A stretch of DNA of 5,640 nucleotides, from IMG/VR virus record IMGVR_UViG_3300045988_000385, positions 1 to 5,640 of that record, one strand, 5' to 3'. Of the stretch, positions 333-5,640 are shown in pieces (the stretch's first letter is position 1; each line of letters opens with the position of its first letter). The position numbers were made by a program, and so were the translations under genes. Origin of the DNA: a virus. The notes under the pieces are model-generated. The model was not told the origin of the DNA. It ran no database searches and saw only the letters and a list, made by a program, of their open reading frames with translations.

Positions 333-371
333 ATTATATCACATTTTTGGAATTTGTCAAGAGTTTTTTTT
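333..371 (-). promoter_or_regulatory. Near-consensus sigma70 promoter with extended -10 and an upstream A-tract
   Basis: The - strand reads CAAAAAAAACTC-TTGACA(360..355), a 16-nt spacer, then TG-A-TATAAT (TG 341..340, -10 338..333). An A8 tract (371..364) lies just upstream of the -35, like an UP element. The predicted start is near 326, about 22 nt before the ATG at 304. Confidence 0.8.
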
Positions 372-388
372 GAAACTTTTTATTCGAG

Positions 389-454
389 GTCATGCGGTAG
401 GCGCGGTGCGCCGTGCGAAGAGCATGACGTGACTTTCCGGTTTCGCTCGCCGGA
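389..454. other. GC-rich compound hairpin element in an otherwise AT-rich spacer
   Basis: The outer stem is GTCATGC (389..395) with GCATGAC (422..428). It encloses an inner stem GGCGC (400..404) with GCGCC (408..412). A second hairpin pairs TCCGG (436..440) with CCGGA (450..454). Confidence 0.5.
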
Positions 455-499
455 CTGCCTTTAATCACAGTTTTCAACATTTTCAACACTTTCAACAGG

Positions 500-508
500 T
501 TTTCCACA
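500..508 (+). promoter_or_regulatory. DnaA-box match TTTTCCACA
   Basis: It matches the relaxed consensus TTWTNCACA at 9/9 positions. Confidence 0.55.
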
Positions 509-511
509 AAA

Positions 512-537
512 TGTTGCACAAAGGTTTTTGTGCATAT
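512..537. other. Hairpin formed by two inverted DnaA-box-like 9-mers
   Basis: TGCACAAA (515..522) pairs with TTTGTGCA (527..534), with loop GGTT. The arms lie inside TGTTGCACA (512..520, + strand, 8/9) and ATATGCACA (529..537, read on the - strand, 8/9). Confidence 0.6.
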
Positions 538-563
538 TGCTACACTTTCAACATTTCAACAAG

Positions 564-572
564 TTATCCACA
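564..572 (+). promoter_or_regulatory. Perfect consensus DnaA box TTATCCACA
   Basis: It is an exact match to the strict 9-mer consensus and sits inside the second copy of the 23-nt repeat. Confidence 0.6.
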
Positions 573-669
573 AAAGTATCAACATTAAAATTAGCCAAAA
601 AATATCGTTCCAAGGATAAAAATTCATAGTATTCAACATTTCAACACTCCCTATTACTACGACTACAAC

Positions 670-696
670 AAATTAATAATAAAATAATAATAATAT
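670..696. repeat. 27-nt A/T-only tract with (TAA)3-AA-(TAA)3
   Basis: The sequence is AAATTAATAATAAAATAATAATAATAT. TAA occurs at 674, 677, 680, 685, 688 and 691. Confidence 0.9.
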
Positions 697-737
697 CGTG
701 CGCGTGCGTGCGCGATTACGTGCGTGCGCGTGCATGT
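697..737. repeat. Two alternating pyrimidine-purine (CG/TG)n blocks, Z-DNA-prone, containing repeated 11-mers
   Basis: Bases 697..714 are 18 nt of perfect Y-R alternation and 717..737 are 21 nt. GTGCGTGCGCG lies at 704..714 and 720..730. CGTGCGCGTGC lies at 697..707 and 723..733. Confidence 0.85.
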
Positions 738-753
738 CAATATGAAATAAAAT

Positions 754-794
754 ACTCAGCCAAGTAGCTTTACTTGATAGTTACTTGGCTGAGT
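754..794 (-). terminator. Perfect 13-bp hairpin directly after the Rep stop, a candidate terminator or ssDNA structural element
   Basis: ACTCAGCCAAGTA (754..766) pairs with TACTTGGCTGAGT (782..794), with a 15-nt loop. On the - strand it is followed by ATTTTATTTCAT. The loop is long for a classic terminator. Confidence 0.5.
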
Positions 795-2715: not shown

Positions 2716-4398
2716 TTAGTGATGGTCTACAAGGCCGGGAATGCTGTACATCGGCATTGGCCGTACACTTGTGTTGTCGATGACGGTATCCATGATAAAC
2801 TGTGGTTCGTTGTCCACTGCCAAGGTTCTCTGAATTTCGGAGTCTCCTTCCTTCATCCATGCCTGACTGAGGCTTGGCACTGTTTTGTAGTTGTCGCCAT
2901 AGTGCCAGCTGTCCAGTGTTCCCGTTGCGTTGCTGCGGAATTTGCCGCTGATTCTGTTCGGCTTCATCCGGTACTCGGCCCAAGCTTCCTGATAGCCGAA
3001 CGCCTGTTCGTCGGATGCCGTGCCGGTCAGATACAATTCCTTTTTCAAAATTGCTTGCTCTCCCAGGTTTGCGAAGACCGGGTAATAGAAATCCAGATTG
3101 GTTTTCCGACTCCACATCCGTTCGAGTCCCTGCTGGTAGGTGTGGTCATGCCTGATGCAGCACACTCCGATAACATAGCCGTGTTCCTCGAAACTCTTTG
3201 TAAACATACTTCCGTTGTACGGCGTAACGCTCACTGCTGCGGTGTTGCCCTGCGGGCTTTCCGTCGTCGTGCCGCTGGTCTGGATGACTTGACTCATGTT
3301 GATGGTGATACGCGTACCGCCCAGATACTCCGGAATCTGTACGGTTTTGTCCGAAATTTTGGTGTGGAAAAGCGAGTAAATCATCTCGCGGTAGCGACTG
3401 CCACCGCGTGCCAGCTCTTCGTAATATTTCTGTACCTGGAAAGCCTGTCTCAGCTGGTTGATGGTCGTGCTGTTTACGCTACTCATGTCCGCGTACAGGT
3501 CCATGCTTGTGTTGTAGTATGTACCGCCTTCTTTACTCCAACCATTGATTGTCAGGGGTGAGCCTTCTCCGTTGATTACGTTTGAGTTTTCTCCGTTGTA
3601 GGTGATGAGGTCGATCGCTTTTGTCTCTTTTTCTTCTCCAGGGTACTTGTATCCGTATATTGGCGCGTTTCCGCTGAGCGGAATTGTTACTGACTCTTTT
3701 GCTCTCTGCGGTGCTGGTAGTGCTGATGTAAAGTAGTCGTGGTACTTGTTGACCGGAAGAGGTCTGCCGCCTTTGTATGCTTGTTGTAAGGTTAGTTCGA
3801 GGTTTTCTTCTTCTAACTGGTCGTCGTATCTTACAGTTGCATCTCCTGTCGTGTTTATTGCTGGATTGTCTAGGTTTTGGTCTCTAAACCACTCATTCCA
3901 AATTTTAACGTATGCTCTGACAGGCAGTGCGTTGATGCTGAATTGGTTTTCTCCACTTTCTGGTTTTTTTATTACCTTTGTGGGTATTCCCATGTAGTCT
4001 AGAATGCTTCCTTCGTATGGAGCCAGTTCTGTTATTGAGTCTTTATCCTTTTTTATGACTAACTGTGGAATATTGTACTCTACTTGCTGTACCCAAGGGT
4101 TATCTGTTACTTCTCCCATAAACTCCTTCCAATGTTCCCAGATAATTCTATTTGGGACAAAGAAGTAATAGATATCCATATAACAGTTGTCCATGACTGG
4201 AAAAATTGGCGTAGTCATTCTCACGATGGCTGCTTGGTCAACGCTGAATGTGTCCCCTGGAAGTACTTCGTCTACATAGAAAGGGATAAGTTTTCCTGCG
4301 TTAAGCGTTAACTTGACGTCCTGCCGCCGTTTGAATCGACTTCGCGTGATGTCCAGGCGCGGTACCTGGTTGAATCCTGCATCTTTGTTTCTGTTCAC
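2716..4398 (-). CDS. VP1: Major capsid protein VP1 (F-like), 560 aa
   Basis: GTG start at 4398..4396, preceded by GGAGG with a 7-nt spacer. The N-terminal signature [33 protein letters not shown] is typical of microvirus major capsid proteins. The length is typical of gokushovirus VP1. The start overlaps the VP3 stop (GTGA). Confidence 0.97.
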
Positions 4399-4892
4399 TC
4401 TTTAGCCTCCGCTGTTTCTGCTGTCTTTGTTGCTTCGGGTTCTGCTTTTTTTTCTTGGTAAATACCCAGATTTTTTGCCCATTCGACTGTGCCAAACGAT
4501 GCAATGAATTTGTCCACGTCGTTGTCAAACTTGAGCTTGATGTCTTTCGGCACCTCGTCCCAGATTTGCTCTGCTCTCATCATGATGTTCTGGAGTTCGG
4601 CCAGATTCTGCGGTGCTTCGGTAAAGTCTTGGATGCCGCCCCCGATGTCCGGTTTGATACGTGCTGCAATGTCCGGGTCGATGCTTGCCCGCCGGATGAT
4701 GTTTTCCAGCTTGGTTTCTTCGAGATAGCTGTCTATCTCGGCCTGCTGGTCGATGGTCTGGTCGAGTCTTAGCACTTTTTCGCCTTTTTCGTTGCGTTCC
4801 CAGAGGTACGTGCGCCTTACGTTTTCCCCGGCTTCGGTCGGTTTTGCTGTCGCGGTTTCCCGCCAGTTACTTACAGAGCGAAACGCCATCAA
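4395..4892 (-). CDS. VP3: Internal scaffolding protein VP3, 164-165 aa
   Basis: The start is TTG (4892..4890, 7 nt after AAGGAG) or the adjacent ATG (4889..4887, 10 nt after it). DFTEAPQNLAELQNIMMRAEQIWDEVPKDIKLKFDNDVDKFI resembles the conserved VP3 core. It sits immediately upstream of VP1. Confidence 0.85.
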   Translation of the reverse strand: MMAFRSVSNWRETATAKPTEAGENVRRTYLWERNEKGEKVLRLDQTIDQQAEIDSYLEETKLENIIRRASIDPDIAARIKPDIGGGIQDFTEAPQNLAELQNIMMRAEQIWDEVPKDIKLKFDNDVDKFIASFGTVEWAKNLGIYQEKKAEPEATKTAETAEAKE

Positions 4893-5109
4893 AGATGTTC
4901 TCCTTATTCTCGATGAATTCGCCGGTTTTTTCGTCGAACTTTGCCAGACGTACCAACCGGTAGTCGCTCGGCGATTTGCTCATAATGTTGTGTTCGTCGG
5001 TGAGTGCAATTTTGAAGTTGCGCTCTGCCACCTTGTCTTCTCGCTCGGTGAAGATGGTGATATAGCCCATCACACAGTTGTCGAAGATGCCGTATACGTT
5101 GGTGCTCAC
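4867..5109 (-). CDS. Small conserved microvirus protein of unknown function, 80 aa
   Basis: GTG start at 5109..5107, 9 nt after GAGGAGG. It overlaps the upstream stop (GTGA). The pattern VYGIFDN...F...SPSDYRLVRLAKFDEKTGEF resembles a small nonstructural protein I recall from gokusho-type genomes (Y-x-I-x-D ... P-x-D-Y-x-L ... FD-x-x-TG). Confidence 0.75.
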   Translation of the reverse strand: MSTNVYGIFDNCVMGYITIFTEREDKVAERNFKIALTDEHNIMSKSPSDYRLVRLAKFDEKTGEFIENKENIFDGVSLCK

Positions 5110-5225
5110 AGTCGAATACCTCCTCGCATTGCGCCGCTGCCAAGGTTGATTGCCTTGGTCTTTTTTGCGGTCTTGTTGTAGATTTTTGCGTCTTTGGATT
5201 TGCGGACTTTACTCCTTTTCGCCAT
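5106..5225 (-). CDS. Small basic DNA-binding/packaging protein (J-like / VP8-like), 39 aa
   Basis: I trimmed the tracked ORF 5106..5297 to the ATG at 5225..5223. The sequence is MAKRSKVRKSKDAKIYNKTAKKTKAINLGSGAMRGGIRL, with 13 K/R in 39 residues. The C-terminal MRGGIRL is a recurrent ending of this microvirus protein as I recall it. The SD-like AAGGG lies 9 nt upstream. Confidence 0.8.
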   Translation of the reverse strand: MAKRSKVRKSKDAKIYNKTAKKTKAINLGSGAMRGGIRL

Positions 5226-5436
5226 TGTTGATTTCCCTTCTGAGGATTTCCATCTCAATGCTGTTTGCTGCTGCTTTTTTCCTGAAGGCCATTTCAAGGT
5301 AAAACTTTGCGTCTTCGTACTTTGCGGCCTGTTGGAGCAGTTTGTATGCGGAATCGATTTCTTTGTAGGTTTTCGTCAATTCCTGCATGAGTTTCGTATC
5401 GGTCTGGTCTCTTGCGTTCCACGTTTTGATCTCCAT
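5209..5436 (-). CDS. Hypothetical 75-aa protein, probably all-helical
   Basis: ATG at 5436..5434, 6 nt after AAGGA. It is the first long ORF of the block and overlaps the next gene by 17 nt. I recognise no family. Confidence 0.65.
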   Translation of the reverse strand: MEIKTWNARDQTDTKLMQELTKTYKEIDSAYKLLQQAAKYEDAKFYLEMAFRKKAAANSIEMEILRREINNGEKE

Positions 5437-5438
5437 GG

Positions 5439-5543
5439 TTAATCCTTGGGCTGGTTGCCCTCTACTGCGTGATAAATCTTGTCCAGCATAGCCAAGATTT
5501 TGCGAATGTTGTTAAACAGCGCGTTGATTTCCTTGAGGGTCAG
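5439..5543 (-). CDS. Speculative 34-aa ORF with a non-canonical (CTG or ATT) start behind a strong SD
   Basis: GAGGTGA (5556..5550) is followed in frame by TGA ATT GCT CTG and then 33 sense codons to TAA (5441..5439), 2 nt before the next ATG. There is no ATG, GTG or TTG in frame near the SD. The peptide would be (M)TLKEINALFNNIRKILAMLDKIYHAVEGNQPKD. Confidence 0.2.
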   Translation of the reverse strand: MTLKEINALFNNIRKILAMLDKIYHAVEGNQPKD

Positions 5544-5640
5544 AGCAATTCACCTCTTTCTAAAATTTATTTTGTATAAATGGTTTTGTAAAATAGCACT
5601 TCTGTGCTGTTTAACTGTTTTGAGTTTACTAAAAAAAAAG
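5542..5640. repeat. Terminal direct repeat, copy 2 (identical to 1..99)
   Basis: Same as copy 1; the period is 5,541 nt. Confidence 0.95.
5564..5592 (-). promoter_or_regulatory. Candidate promoter for the main gene block (also present at 23..51)
   Basis: On the - strand: TTTACA, a 17-nt spacer, then TAAATT. This would start transcription a few nt before the GAGGTGA SD. Confidence 0.35.

What the first reader, a model, noticed from the sequence alone, without database searches (positions are those of the whole stretch)
471..646. Arrays of same-orientation DnaA-box-like 9-mers, including a perfect TTATCCACA, in a microvirus intergenic region
Reading 9-mers against the DnaA-box consensus TTWTNCACA gives the following. 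Array 1: 471 TTTTCAACA (8/9), 480 TTTTCAACA (8/9), 489 CTTTCAACA (7/9), 500 TTTTCCACA (9/9), 512 TGTTGCACA (8/9), 529 ATATGCACA on the opposite strand (8/9). Array 2: 545 CTTTCAACA, 553 ATTTCAACA, 564 TTATCCACA (exact strict consensus), 576 GTATCAACA. Array 3: 630 TATTCAACA, 638 ATTTCAACA. Eleven of the twelve point the same way and are packed head-to-tail with gaps of 0-3 nt. That is the geometry of the high- plus low-affinity DnaA site arrays in bacterial oriC. One specified 9-mer is expected only about 0.04 times in 2 x 5.5 kb of random sequence. The only other relaxed match I saw is a lone TTTTCCACA inside VP1 (3363..3371, - strand), which fits chance. I know of no characterised microvirus described as carrying a DnaA-box array. 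Possible roles are DnaA-dependent priming, DnaA titration to manipulate host initiation, DnaA-controlled transcription, plasmid-like persistence, or a captured host or plasmid origin fragment. Alternatively, TTCAACA may be the iteron of another protein.
Basis: partly seen in the sequence, partly recalled or inferred. Interest (0 to 1): 0.82.

Follow-up and report, generated by a model that had tools for sequence, protein, structure and literature searches.

The report
Chromosome-origin mimic inside a gut microvirus
This small single-stranded-DNA gut phage carries in its non-coding region a compact copy of the replication start site that Ruminococcus-type bacteria have beside their dnaA gene, so it probably recruits the host's master replication initiator, DnaA, which has not been described for this virus family.

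Summary
In detail: all twelve 9-mers are where stated, and 7 of 8 TTTCMACA copies in the genome lie in 472-646 on one strand (0 of 200 shuffles reach 8).

The DnaA reading is supported but needs correcting and extending.
- The conserved unit is TTTCAACA, not TTATCCACA. In relatives the two "perfect" boxes often read TTTTCAACA.
- TTTCAACA is the dominant repeat on both sides of dnaA in Ruminococcus, Oscillospiraceae and Clostridia genomes: 18.2 per kb against 0.52 per kb elsewhere. Canonical TTATCCACA occurs twice in that DNA.
- The DnaA proteins of those bacteria differ at three of six base-contact residues.

The key part lies just outside the finding. Array 3 (630-646) is followed by a 4-nt GC cluster, DnaA-trios (651-671) and a 25-nt all-A+T stretch (672-696). 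The dnaA-dnaN spacer of those bacteria has the same layout, which is the "basal unwinding system" of Firmicute origins.

More than 130 gokushovirus genomes share this module. It stays 92-96% identical where VP4 is only about 46% identical, and it works in either orientation and at two genome positions, so it acts on double-stranded DNA.

Most likely it loads host DnaA on the replicative form and opens it. What follows is inferred. No DnaA binding was tested.

The parts
471..520 (+). Distal DnaA-box array 1. Five same-orientation boxes at 471, 480, 489, 500 and 512 (TTTTCAACA, TTTTCAACA, CTTTCAACA, TTTTCCACA, TGTTGCACA), with start-to-start spacing 9, 9, 11, 12.
   Evidence: The array is nearly invariant in more than 140 related genomes. 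The same box types and the same preferred 9- and 11-nt spacings occur in host oriC.
515..534 (.). Palindrome TGCACAAA-GGTT-TTTGTGCA. It overlaps box 512 and the reverse box at 529-537. Its role is unknown.
   Evidence: I10. The DNA hairpin has z = -1.96. One large group of relatives has an unrelated palindrome, TTCGTCAnnnTGACGAA, at the same place.
545..584 (+). Distal DnaA-box array 2. Boxes at 545, 553, 564 and 576 (CTTTCAACA, ATTTCAACA, TTATCCACA, GTATCAACA). It has the same internal plan as the last four boxes of array 1.
   Evidence: D6: 490-511 against 554-575, 91% identical. In many relatives TTATCCACA here reads TTTTCAACA or TTTTCCACA.
630..646 (+). Proximal tandem DnaA-box pair (TATTCAACA and ATTTCAACA, sharing one base). 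This is the box pair of the unwinding module.
   Evidence: A tandem pair directly upstream of the trios is present in 132 of 141 related genomes. The host dnaA-dnaN spacers read GTTTTCAACAGTTTCAACA in the same position.
647..650 (+). 4-nt GC cluster (CTCC) between the box pair and the trios.
   Evidence: Hosts have CCCC here. A GC-rich gap of about 4 bp is part of the published description of the unwinding system (PMC8287927, PMC7561715).
651..671 (-). DnaA-trios. The + strand reads CTA TTA CTA CGA CTA CAA CAA, so the - strand reads 3'-GAT AAT GAT GCT GAT GTT GTT-5'. The - strand is the coding strand and presumably the packaged one.
   Evidence: In relatives the first three trios are at least 95% conserved as CTACTACTA, the fourth varies and the fifth is CTA. 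Hosts have (CTA)4-6 at the same position. The published consensus is 3'-[G/A]A[T/A]-5' repeated more than three times after a GC cluster.
672..696 (.). AT-rich stretch, the putative DNA unwinding element. 25 nt, 100% A+T, in a genome that is 54% A+T.
   Evidence: An AT-rich stretch follows the trios in the relatives listed, and in host spacers.
585..629 (.). Spacer between array 2 and the proximal pair (TTAAAATTAGCCAAAAAATATCGTTCCAAGGATAAAAATTCATAG). Conserved among close relatives; function unknown.
697..736 (.). Alternating purine-pyrimidine GC tract (CGTGCG-like repeats) abutting the AT-rich stretch. It flanks the module. Whether it belongs to the module is uncertain.
   Evidence: D4; 30% A+T. 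It avoids single-strand structure (z = +2.25). Similar tracts occur in most relatives.

Best explanation
Window 471-696 is an oriC-type DnaA module carried by a gokushovirus. It has:
- two distal clusters of DnaA boxes (arrays 1 and 2);
- a proximal tandem box pair (array 3);
- a 4-nt GC cluster;
- DnaA-trios;
- an AT-rich unwinding element.

The boxes are the variant (T/C/G)TTTC(A/C)ACA, which Ruminococcus/Oscillospiraceae-type Clostridia have on both sides of dnaA. These bacteria are therefore the probable hosts.

Proposed mechanism, all inferred:
1. The incoming single strand is converted to the double-stranded replicative form.
2. Host DnaA-ATP binds the boxes.
3. DnaA oligomerises from the proximal pair onto the trio strand, as in the basal unwinding system of Firmicute origins.
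4. The adjacent AT-rich DNA opens.

The most likely use of that opening is to load the host replicative helicase. That would start DnaA-dependent replication of the replicative form, alongside the VP4-dependent rolling circle that makes progeny single strands. Binding many DnaA molecules per phage copy would also compete with the host origin as a by-product.

Shown here: the sequence architecture, its conservation, its match to bacterial oriC, and its independence of orientation.
Inferred: DnaA binding, unwinding, helicase loading and the host assignment.
For: (a) Non-random, one-directional box cluster.

(b) Family conservation.
- Pattern scans of viral contigs returned 95 loci and more than 120 loci. 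Nearly all are 5-6 kb microvirus genomes.
- All 96 genomes of the first set carry the array 180-570 nt after the VP4 stop.
- Outside the search pattern the element is 92-96% identical to the window in genomes whose VP4 is 45-47% and VP1 about 53% identical at the protein level. It is only about 80% identical in genomes with 57% VP4 identity. This is a selected, exchangeable module, not shared descent.

(c) The C/A interchange at box position 6 in relatives mirrors the host box repertoire: TTTCAACA 210, TTTCCACA 51, TTATCCACA 2.

(d) Link to bacterial origins.
- A scan of 185,579 species genomes found the triple box in the dnaA-flanking intergenic DNA of 8 Ruminococcus/Oscillospiraceae/Clostridia genomes.
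- Pfam confirms the gene order yidC, rnpA, dnaA, dnaN.
- Box density is 18.2 per kb in that DNA against 0.52 per kb in the rest of the loci.
- Boxes are preferentially 9 and 11 nt apart in both virus and host.

(e) Unwinding module.
- 132 of 141 viral genomes have a box pair, a 4-nt spacer, CTACTACTA-nnn-CTA and AT-rich DNA.
- Host dnaA-dnaN spacers read GTTTTCAACAGTTTCAACA-CCCC-(CTA)4-6-AT-rich.
- The layout meets the published criteria (PMC8287927, PMC7561715, PMC6669920).

(f) The host DnaA proteins carry P423A, T435S and H439Y. These are three of the six residues listed as base-specific contacts (PMC7561715), which fits a variant box.

(g) Action on double-stranded DNA.
- The whole module is inverted in L109, L120 and L128.
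- It is inverted and moved to just upstream of VP4 in a distant clade.
- The box/trio strand is the coding strand in 13 genomes and the non-coding strand in 119.
- As single-stranded DNA the region folds no better than shuffles (z = +0.57).

(h) In Bacillus subtilis, distal boxes act at variable distance and in either orientation. Plasmids carrying the dnaA-dnaN spacer (incC) interfere with chromosomal initiation (PMC6669920).
Against: - No biochemistry: DnaA binding to TTTTCAACA has not been shown, either here or in the papers searched.
- The host link rests only on motif identity. No prophage, CRISPR or isolate evidence was available. Armatimonadota genomes (L216, L231) also have TTTCAACA clusters, so the box is not unique to one clade.
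- No sequence similarity between the virus module and any sampled host origin extends beyond the boxes. Capture and convergence cannot be told apart.
- In many relatives the AT-rich stretch is only about 12-14 nt before GC-rich DNA begins. This is shorter than in the hosts.
- The window's own trios are less regular than those of its relatives (CTA TTA CTA CGA CTA).
- Rolling-circle viruses have no known need for DnaA, so the downstream use (theta-type replication) is conjecture.
- The virus-specific invariant CTACAACAAGT at the trio/AT junction is not explained by a pure host-origin model.
Confidence: 0.6

Rival explanations
1. DnaA decoy or sensor without replication. The module binds host DnaA only to titrate it away from the host origin, giving incompatibility and a block on host initiation. 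Or DnaA acts here as a transcription factor that couples the strong promoter at 360-333 (- strand) to the host's replication status. Unwinding is not used to start phage DNA synthesis.
For: - About 12 boxes per genome copy, multiplied by a multicopy replicative form, would be a large sink.
- Plasmids carrying the B. subtilis dnaA-dnaN spacer inhibit chromosomal initiation (PMC6669920).
- A perfect TTGACA-16-TGnTATAAT promoter lies 110 nt beyond array 1.
- T5-like phages conserve 8 DnaA boxes in a region thought unrelated to replication (bioRxiv 10.1101/866236).
Against: - Titration or transcriptional control needs only boxes.
- The GC cluster, the phased trios and the AT-rich stretch are conserved in 132 of 141 genomes. 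These are the parts specific for strand opening.
- The position and orientation of the module relative to the promoter change between clades.
Confidence: 0.2
2. Opening aid for the phage's own nuclease. DnaA melts 651-696 so that the HUH endonuclease VP4 can reach a single-stranded nick site at or near the trio/AT junction, or at the nearby hairpin (754-794). DnaA thereby triggers rolling-circle replication rather than helicase loading.
For: - HUH nucleases cut single-stranded DNA (general knowledge).
- CTACAACAAGT at the junction is at least 95% conserved in viruses but absent from host modules.
- On the coding strand most relatives read AACTTG-TTG, which resembles the phiX174 origin core CAACTTG-A (from memory, not checked).
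- A conserved, covarying hairpin with loop ATCAAG(T/A)A lies within 0-150 nt of the AT-rich stretch in most genomes.
Against: - The module flips relative to the coding strand in 13 of 132 genomes, so a strand-specific nick site inside it would end up on the wrong strand.
- In the inverted genomes the AT-rich end lies more than 300 nt from the hairpin.
- The window itself reads CAACAAATT, not CAACAAGTT.
Confidence: 0.1
3. Iterons of a protein other than DnaA. This could be a phage protein or another host origin-binding factor that recognises TTTCAACA, with the DnaA-box likeness coincidental.
For: - TTTCAACA departs from TTWTNCACA at a position normally required for binding (general knowledge of the Schaper and Messer consensus).
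- Some module-less gokushoviruses carry unrelated iterons in their non-coding DNA; in L290 and L293 these lie upstream of VP4 (GTCTACCC; GTTATGGT).
- The reverse complement TGTTGAA is one base from the Spo0A box TGTCGAA (memory).
Against: - The same boxes are the dominant repeat on both sides of dnaA and sit directly against DnaA-trios in bacterial dnaA-dnaN spacers.
- TTTCCACA, which is 8 of 9 positions of a consensus box, substitutes freely for TTTCAACA in both virus and host.
- The host DnaA has changed contact residues.
- No DNA-binding family was found for the two small ORFs next to the array region, 107-304 and 5209-5436. VP5 (4867-5109) does match a PHROG annotated as a DNA-binding protein.
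- The element stays constant while VP4 falls to 37-47% identity.
Confidence: 0.06
4. Single-strand signal: a complementary-strand origin that works as a folded structure in the packaged strand. A DnaA-box hairpin of the 'A site' type is one possible form.
For: - Single-stranded phages need a priming signal on the viral strand.
- A DnaA-box hairpin that assembles a primosome on single-stranded DNA is known from plasmid R6K (Masai and Arai; memory).
- The trio strand is the coding strand in about 90% of genomes.
Against: - The region folds no better than shuffles as single-stranded DNA (z = +0.57, 138 of 200 shuffles fold as well).
- All boxes but one point the same way, so they cannot pair with each other.
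- No TTTCAACA occurs on the coding strand of the window.
- The module works in both orientations.
Confidence: 0.03

Closest known systems
Basal unwinding system of Firmicute chromosome origins: Bacillus subtilis incC and Clostridioides difficile oriC2 (PMC6669920, PMC8287927, PMC7561715)
   Same: - Tandem DnaA boxes in one orientation.
- A GC gap of about 4 bp.
- At least 3 DnaA-trios (3'-GAT-5') on the strand that runs 3' to 5' away from the boxes.
- An AT-rich element after the trios.
- Further DnaA boxes upstream.

The C. difficile trio region CACC-TACTACTATTACTACTA resembles window 647-665.
   Different: - It lies in a 5.5-kb single-stranded-DNA virus, not between dnaA and dnaN.
- The boxes are TTTTC(A/C)ACA rather than TTATCCACA.
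- The AT-rich part is short.
- A virus-specific invariant CTACAACAAGT follows the trios.
- The orientation relative to the rest of the genome is not fixed.
oriC (dnaA-dnaN spacer) of the Ruminococcus/Oscillospiraceae/Clostridia genomes found here (L177, L183, L184, L218, L223)
   Same: - The same box sequences, with the same A-over-C preference at position 6.
- The same favoured 9- and 11-nt spacings.
- The same order: box pair, GC cluster, (CTA)n, AT-rich.
   Different: - No alignable similarity outside the motifs.
- Hosts have 20-40 boxes spread over 1-2 kb on both sides of dnaA; the virus has about 12 in 180 nt.
- An 8-nt box spacing is common in the viruses and absent from the hosts.
DnaA-box cluster in the injection-stop region of T5-like phages (bioRxiv 10.1101/866236)
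   Same: - A conserved, precisely arranged set of DnaA and near-DnaA boxes (including TTATCAACA) in non-coding phage DNA.
- The cluster is conserved more strongly than the genes.
   Different: - T5 is a large double-stranded-DNA phage of Enterobacteria.
- Its boxes sit in inverted repeats.
- No trios or unwinding element were reported.
- The proposed role is arrest of DNA injection, not replication.
Plasmid and prophage origins that use DnaA boxes together with their own initiator (P1 oriR, F, pSC101, R6K; general knowledge)
   Same: Mobile elements that recruit host DnaA through boxes placed next to an AT-rich region.
   Different: - Those origins depend on iterons for a plasmid-encoded Rep, with DnaA as a helper.
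- Here no second iteron type and no theta-type Rep is present, and the layout is that of a chromosomal origin with trios.
phiX174-type rolling-circle origin and complementary-strand signals (general knowledge)
   Same: Same virus family. The non-coding region holds the replication signals.
   Different: - phiX174 uses a 30-nt site for protein A, plus a PriA assembly hairpin on the single strand.
- No DnaA involvement is known.
- The element here works in either orientation and shows no single-strand structure.

Membership tests
DnaA basal unwinding system (oriC-type module) | A DnaA box matching the species' own box motif | tested here: met
   The boxes at 630-638 and 638-646 (TATTCAACA, ATTTCAACA) match the dominant dnaA-flanking box TTTCAACA of Ruminococcus/Oscillospiraceae/Clostridia genomes. 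Against E. coli TTATCCACA they have 2-3 mismatches, which is within the limits used in PMC8287927.
DnaA basal unwinding system (oriC-type module) | Spacer of at most 16 bp from the better box to the first trio, including a GC-rich gap of about 4 bp | tested here: met
   The upstream box ends at 638 and the first trio starts at 651, so the spacer is 12 nt. The GC cluster CTCC occupies 647-650. The published peak is 10-13 bp.
DnaA basal unwinding system (oriC-type module) | At least three consecutive DnaA-trios, 3'-[G/A]A[T/A]-5' | tested here: met
   The window has 3'-GAT AAT GAT-5', then GCT, then GAT (651-665). Of 141 relatives, 132 have CTA at the first position and at three or more of the first five trio positions. 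In the consensus the first three and the fifth positions are CTA and the fourth varies.
DnaA basal unwinding system (oriC-type module) | AT-rich unwinding element immediately beyond the trios | tested here: met
   672-696 is 25 nt of 100% A+T. In many relatives it is shorter, about 12-14 nt.
DnaA basal unwinding system (oriC-type module) | Additional distal DnaA boxes upstream that support the proximal pair | tested here: met
   Arrays 1 and 2 (471-584) lie 46-175 nt upstream of the proximal pair. In B. subtilis the distal boxes tolerate variable distance and orientation (PMC6669920).
DnaA basal unwinding system (oriC-type module) | ATP-DnaA binds the boxes, oligomerises on the trio strand and separates the strands | not testable with these tools
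   This needs purified DnaA and strand-separation or footprinting assays.
Bacterial chromosomal oriC | Located on a bacterial chromosome, typically beside dnaA/dnaN, and serving as its origin | tested here: not met
   The element lies in a circular 5.5-kb gokushovirus genome between VP4 and a small ORF. It is oriC-like in design but is not a chromosomal origin.
Canonical E. coli-type DnaA-box array (TTWTNCACA) | Most boxes fit TTWTNCACA | tested here: not met
   Only 2 of the 12 boxes fit (500 and 564). In relatives these two often read TTTTCAACA.
Rep-specific iterons of rolling-circle replicons (CRESS viruses, pMV158-type plasmids) | Iteron sequence co-varies with the cognate Rep and lies next to its nick site on a fixed strand | tested here: not met
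   The box sequence is unchanged while VP4 identity falls to 37-47%. The module is inverted or relocated in some lineages.
Single-strand initiation signals (sso elements, primosome assembly sites, DnaA-box 'A site') | Stable, conserved secondary structure in the packaged strand | tested here: not met
   The DNA fold of 465-700 (- strand) has z = +0.57. The boxes are direct repeats, not inverted repeats.

The most novel reading that the evidence does not exclude
These gokushoviruses have two replication modes. One is a DnaA-dependent, chromosome-style (theta) origin that lets the double-stranded form multiply, or persist like a minichromosome in step with the host cell cycle. The other is the VP4 rolling circle, used only to make progeny single strands. 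The viral origin copies would at the same time out-compete the host origin for DnaA. That would be the first DnaA-only, oriC-type origin in any virus. It would also offer a mechanism for long-term carriage of microviruses in gut Clostridia without integration.
Probability: 0.3. Interest if true: 0.9.

Novelty: new variant of a known kind. Interest (0 to 1): 0.8.

Why it matters
Microviruses are taken to replicate by a self-encoded rolling-circle nuclease plus host elongation factors, with no role for DnaA. The evidence here points to a different, testable picture.

- **New behaviour for the family.** A complete, strongly conserved host-type origin-opening module in more than 130 gut gokushovirus genomes implies that a large clade plugs into the host's initiation machinery. 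In the literature searched, no paper holds both Microviridae and "DnaA box", none holds both gokushovirus and DnaA, and none of the titles returned for DnaA-trio with bacteriophage concerns a phage element.
- **Host prediction.** It gives a sequence-based host prediction (Ruminococcus/Oscillospiraceae-type Clostridia) for abundant gut phages that have never been cultured.
- **A variant DnaA box.** It exposes a previously unremarked DnaA-box variant, TTTTCAACA, with matching changes in the DnaA recognition helix. This is a natural experiment in initiator-origin co-evolution.
- **A minimal test substrate.** At about 230 bp, the module is a minimal natural unwinding substrate for testing models of origin opening.
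- **Possible tool.** If it supports autonomous replication, it could seed vectors for genetically intractable gut Clostridia.

Tried and rejected
- **Chance.** Rejected by shuffles.
- **Promoter -35 elements** (TTGAAA on the coding strand). Rejected because the array is inverted or relocated in several lineages while the real consensus promoter stays separate.
- **VP4/Rep iterons.** Rejected because the element is constant across VP4 proteins only 37-47% identical.
- **Single-strand origin or hairpin.** Rejected by folding and by the direct-repeat arrangement.
- **Xer/dif-like or attachment site.** A superficial likeness of ATTTCAACA to the XerD arm was considered. No prophage junctions were found in the species-genome scan: the only microvirus contig there, L197, is a free 5.8-kb contig.
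- **Spo0A boxes** (TGTCGAA against TGTTGAA). Considered from memory. Set aside because the mismatch falls on a conserved contact base and because the boxes sit next to DnaA-trios.
- **Recent capture from a sampled host origin or a plasmid.** blastn finds only the box repeats in host loci and nothing relevant in 72,556 plasmids.
- **Known RNA family.** None at gathering score anywhere in the window.
- **General feature of all gokushoviruses.** Rejected. Relatives with VP1 at or below about 47% identity lack both boxes and trios, and some carry unrelated iterons.
- **Attempts that failed.** The DnaA-DNA crystal-structure paper could not be read. The contact-residue list was taken from PMC7561715 instead. 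My first regular expression for the unwinding module was too strict, finding 14 of 141, and was replaced.
Full report
**1. What the window is**

The 5640 bases are a circular gokushovirus genome of about 5540 nt; bases 1-100 repeat at 5541-5640. All genes are on the - strand:
- VP4/Rep, 807-1826
- VP2, 1826-2668
- VP1, 2716-4398
- VP3, 4395-4892
- VP5, 4867-5109
- small ORFs at 5209-5436, 5106-5297 and 107-304

The finding lies in the 500-nt non-coding region 305-806. This region is downstream of VP4 and upstream of a perfect sigma-70-type promoter, TTGACA-16-TGnTATAAT at 360-333 on the - strand.

The nearest GenBank relatives are unannotated "Gokushovirus WZ-2015a" and "Microviridae sp." genomes from human, pig and monkey faeces.

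**2. The observation**

- TTCAACA occurs 7 times in the window, all on the + strand within 473-646. Expected 1.26; 0 of 200 shuffles reach 7.
- TTTCMACA occurs 8 times, 7 of them in 472-646. Expected 0.66; 0 of 200 shuffles reach 8.
- The strict DnaA consensus TTWTNCACA occurs 4 times, 2 of them here.

Arrays 1 and 2 are two copies of one plan: TTTCAACA repeats, then RG, then TTWTCCACA, then AAA, then one more box (repeat D6).

**3. Conservation**

A 22-nt pattern from the array hit 95 viral contigs. A box-only pattern, three TTTCAACA at 9-nt phase, hit more than 120. Nearly all are 5-6 kb microvirus genomes.

Three results matter.

*(i) The conserved unit is TTTCAACA.* In the box-only set, the position of the window's TTTTCCACA (500) usually reads TTTTCAACA, and that of TTATCCACA (564) reads TTTTCAACA or TTTTCCACA. 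The perfect consensus box is one variant among several.

*(ii) The element is far more conserved than the genes.* It is 92-96% identical in genomes whose VP4 is 45-47% and VP1 about 53% identical to the window's. It is only about 80% identical in genomes with 57% VP4 identity. That pattern is not tree-like and points to a selected, exchangeable module. It argues against iterons tuned to the viral Rep.

*(iii) Position and orientation vary.*
- Usually the array lies 160-570 nt after the VP4 stop, with TGTTGAAA on the coding strand.
- In L109, L120 and L128 it is inverted in place.
- In a distant clade (VP4 scoring about 150-175 bits against the window's VP4, whose self-score is 800) it lies just upstream of VP4, in the inverted sense.

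An element that works in either orientation acts on double-stranded DNA. Consistent with this, the region as single-stranded DNA folds no better than shuffles (z = +0.57).

**4. Link to bacterial origins**

One scan of 185,579 species genomes for the triple box gave 76 loci. Many are coding tandem repeats in unrelated bacteria. One group from Ruminococcus, Oscillospiraceae and other Clostridia genomes is different: dense non-coding clusters of TTTCAACA and TTTCCACA.

In eight of these loci the clusters lie beside dnaA. In seven they flank dnaA itself. The eighth, L183, covers the dnaN side only. Pfam confirms dnaA in five loci, dnaN in two, and yidC and rnpA in L177, which gives the classic Firmicute origin context.

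In the 14.3 kb of dnaA-flanking intergenic DNA:
- The commonest 8-mer is TTTCAACA (210 copies).
- TTTCCACA has 51 copies and canonical TTATCCACA has 2.
- Box density is 18.2 per kb, against 0.52 per kb in the rest of the loci.
- The favoured box-to-box distances are 9 and 11 nt, as in the viruses.

The DnaA proteins of all seven loci that include dnaA have Ala for Pro423, Ser for Thr435 and Tyr for His439 (E. coli numbering, aligned to sequences I wrote from memory). These are three of the six residues that PMC7561715 lists as base-specific contacts and describes as conserved between E. coli and the Firmicutes it examined.

The simplest reading is that this bacterial group uses (T/C/G)TTTC(A/C)ACA as its DnaA box, and that the virus arrays are written in that dialect.

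**5.

Immediately after array 3 the window reads:

| Coordinates | Sequence | Part |
|---|---|---|
| 630-646 | TATTCAACA / ATTTCAACA (sharing the A at 638) | proximal box pair |
| 647-650 | CTCC | GC cluster |
| 651-671 | CTA TTA CTA CGA CTA CAA CAA | DnaA-trios |
| 672-696 | 25 nt of pure A+T | AT-rich stretch |

In 132 of 141 related genomes the same order holds: tandem box pair, 4-nt spacer, CTACTACTA-nnn-CTA, CAACAAGT, then AT-rich DNA. The first three trios are at least 95% conserved.

The dnaA-dnaN spacers of the bacterial loci read GTTTTCAACAGTTTCAACA-CCCC-(CTA)4-6-AT-rich.

This is the architecture of the basal unwinding system defined in B. subtilis and predicted in most bacteria:
- DnaA box or boxes;
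- a spacer of at most 16 bp that includes a GC gap of about 4 bp;
- at least three trios of consensus 3'-GAT-5';
- unstable AT-rich DNA beyond the trios;
- help from distal boxes that tolerate variable distance and orientation (PMC8287927, PMC6669920, PMC7561715).

The C. difficile trio region quoted there, CACC-TACTACTATTACTACTA, is very close to window 647-665. All sequence-level criteria are met (see the membership table). The biochemical criterion cannot be tested here.

**6. Mechanism**

*Shown:*
- a non-random, conserved, orientation-independent module;
- boxes, spacings and box-GC-trio-AT order that match bacterial chromosomal origins.

*Inferred:*
- host DnaA-ATP binds arrays 1-3 on the replicative form;
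- it oligomerises from the proximal pair onto the trio strand (the - strand here);
- it opens 651-696.

I think the most likely use of that opening is helicase loading, and hence DnaA-dependent replication of the double-stranded form. The reason is that the parts specific for opening (GC cluster, phased trios, AT stretch) are as conserved as the boxes, whereas titration or transcriptional control would need boxes only.

I put about 0.85 on "DnaA/oriC-type module" and about 0.6 on the full statement including opening for replication.

Rivals kept open:
- pure DnaA titration or transcriptional sensing (0.2);
- opening that serves VP4 nicking (0.1);
- a non-DnaA binding protein (0.06);
- a single-strand signal (0.03).

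One feature a pure host-origin model does not explain: CTACAACAAGT at the trio/AT junction is invariant in the viruses but absent from the bacterial modules.

**7. Capture or convergence, and how widespread it is**

blastn between the viral element and the bacterial loci finds only the box repeats. The PLSDB plasmids hold nothing relevant. The module is therefore not a recent copy of any sampled origin.

Among relatives fetched by VP1 alone:
- Most of those with VP1 at or above about 49% identity carry the module. A few do not (L244, L248, L253, L260).
- Those at or below about 47% identity lack both boxes and trios.
- Some of the latter carry unrelated iterons instead.

The module marks a large clade or clades of gut gokushoviruses, not the whole subfamily.

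**8. Comparison with what is known, and novelty**

Full-text searches found no paper that holds both Microviridae and "DnaA box", and none that holds both gokushovirus and DnaA. None of the titles returned for DnaA-trio with bacteriophage concerns a phage element.

Precedents:
- a conserved cluster of 8 DnaA boxes in T5-like phages, proposed to arrest injection;
- from general knowledge, DnaA boxes as helpers in plasmid and P1 origins.

A chromosomal-style module of box pair, trios and AT-rich stretch in a virus, and in a rolling-circle single-stranded-DNA virus in particular, appears to be new. I class it as a new variant of a known kind: the element type is known, while the carrier and the implied biology are not.

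**9. Caveats**

- There is no binding data.
- The host assignment rests on motif identity alone, and TTTCAACA clusters also occur in two Armatimonadota genomes (L216, L231).
- The bacterial sample was seeded by the search pattern itself.
- The E. coli and B. subtilis DnaA sequences used for residue numbering, the phiX174 origin sequence and the Spo0A box were recalled from memory.

Noticed in passing
window 754-794 (- strand), just after the VP4 stop: Strong hairpin: DNA fold z = -6.5. In 119 of 141 related genomes the coding strand has a perfect stem of at least 10 bp with a loop containing ATCAAG(T/A)A. There are 35 different stem sequences, which indicates covariation. Only 1 of 141 has such a hairpin on the other strand. 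In the distant clade it lies upstream of VP4, so it is not simply VP4's terminator. It is a candidate rolling-circle origin or VP4 nick site.
   Followed up: partly
window 697-736: Alternating purine-pyrimidine GC tract (CGTGCG-like repeats, 30% A+T) directly abutting the all-A+T stretch. It avoids single-strand structure (z = +2.25) and is present in most relatives. It contains GCGCGTG twice, which from memory is the Lactococcus Chi sequence. Z-DNA potential or nuclease protection are untested ideas.
   Followed up: no
window 666-676 and related loci (consensus): The junction CTACAACAAGT between the trios and the AT-rich DNA is at least 95% conserved in the viruses but absent from bacterial unwinding modules. 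It shares CAAGT(A/T)A with the hairpin loop. On the coding strand most relatives read AACTTG-TTG, reminiscent of the phiX174 origin core (memory). The window itself reads CAACAAATT.
   Followed up: partly
window 333-360 (- strand): Perfect sigma-70 promoter, TTGACA-16 nt-TGnTATAAT (12 of 12 plus an extended -10), driving ORF 107-304. Together with strong GGAGG ribosome sites this fits a Firmicute-type host rather than Bacteroidota.
   Followed up: no
window 389-428: Imperfect GC-rich inverted repeat (GTCATGCGG...CCGTGCGAAGAGCATGAC) between array 1 and the promoter. It is conserved in sequence in many relatives, but its single-strand fold is not unusual (z = -0.54).
   Followed up: partly
window 515-534; L001, L006, L098 and others: The palindrome TGCACAAA/TTTGTGCA between arrays 1 and 2 is replaced in another large group by an unrelated palindrome, TTCGTCAnnnTGACGAA, at the same position. 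This suggests a second, interchangeable binding site inside the module.
   Followed up: no
L109, L120, L128 (module inverted in place); L106, L113, L118, L119, L121, L123, L130, L131, L135, L139, L155 (module moved to just upstream of VP4): The whole box-trio-AT cassette is inverted in place or relocated. In one group it is bracketed by GC-rich quasi-palindromes (GCGCGTGCGCG and CGCGCACAGCGC). These could mediate inversion and exchange between co-infecting viruses.
   Followed up: partly
L177 3096-4460, L189 561-1931, L214 2170-3540, L184, L223, L206, L218: The DnaA proteins of the bacteria with TTTCAACA origins all carry P423A, T435S and H439Y (E. coli numbering) in the DNA-recognition region. 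These are three of the six residues reported as base-specific contacts. This looks like an undescribed pairing of a DnaA-box variant with an initiator variant.
   Followed up: partly
L141 6519-6670 (14.7-kb viral contig): An unrelated phage fragment carries 8 same-strand TTTTCAACA boxes plus one inverted TTTTCCACA. They lie at the start of a very long, strongly strand-biased non-coding region. No adjacent trios were seen. Other phages of the same hosts may also use this box.
   Followed up: partly
L172 523-1108 and L181 2682-3266 (Ruminococcus genomes): A cluster of 15-20 TTTCAACA/TTTCCACA boxes with no dnaA within the 8-kb locus. This may be a second chromosomal DnaA-box cluster, or the distal part of the origin.
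   Followed up: no
L216 4851-5514 and L231 4099-4858 (Chthonomonadaceae, Armatimonadota): Clusters of TTTCAACA boxes next to a RecF-like ORF in a different phylum. The box variant is not confined to Clostridia, which weakens host assignment from the motif alone.
   Followed up: no
L290 680-880, L293 146-280, L283, L272 4389-4600; L274 and L275 about 365-500: Gokushoviruses that lack the DnaA module carry other iterons in their non-coding DNA. L290 and L293 have four to five GTCTACCC copies, in pairs around a GC-rich palindrome, just upstream of VP4; L283 and L272 (as the reverse complement) have the same repeat. L274 and L275 have four copies of GTTATGGT. Different clades may use different origin-binding proteins.
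   Followed up: partly
L197 (5840-nt contig binned with a Prevotella genome): A complete microvirus genome carrying the module sits in a Prevotella metagenome bin. This is probably a binning artefact and is not evidence for a Prevotella host.
   Followed up: partly
It is isolated and compatible with chance.
   Followed up: yes
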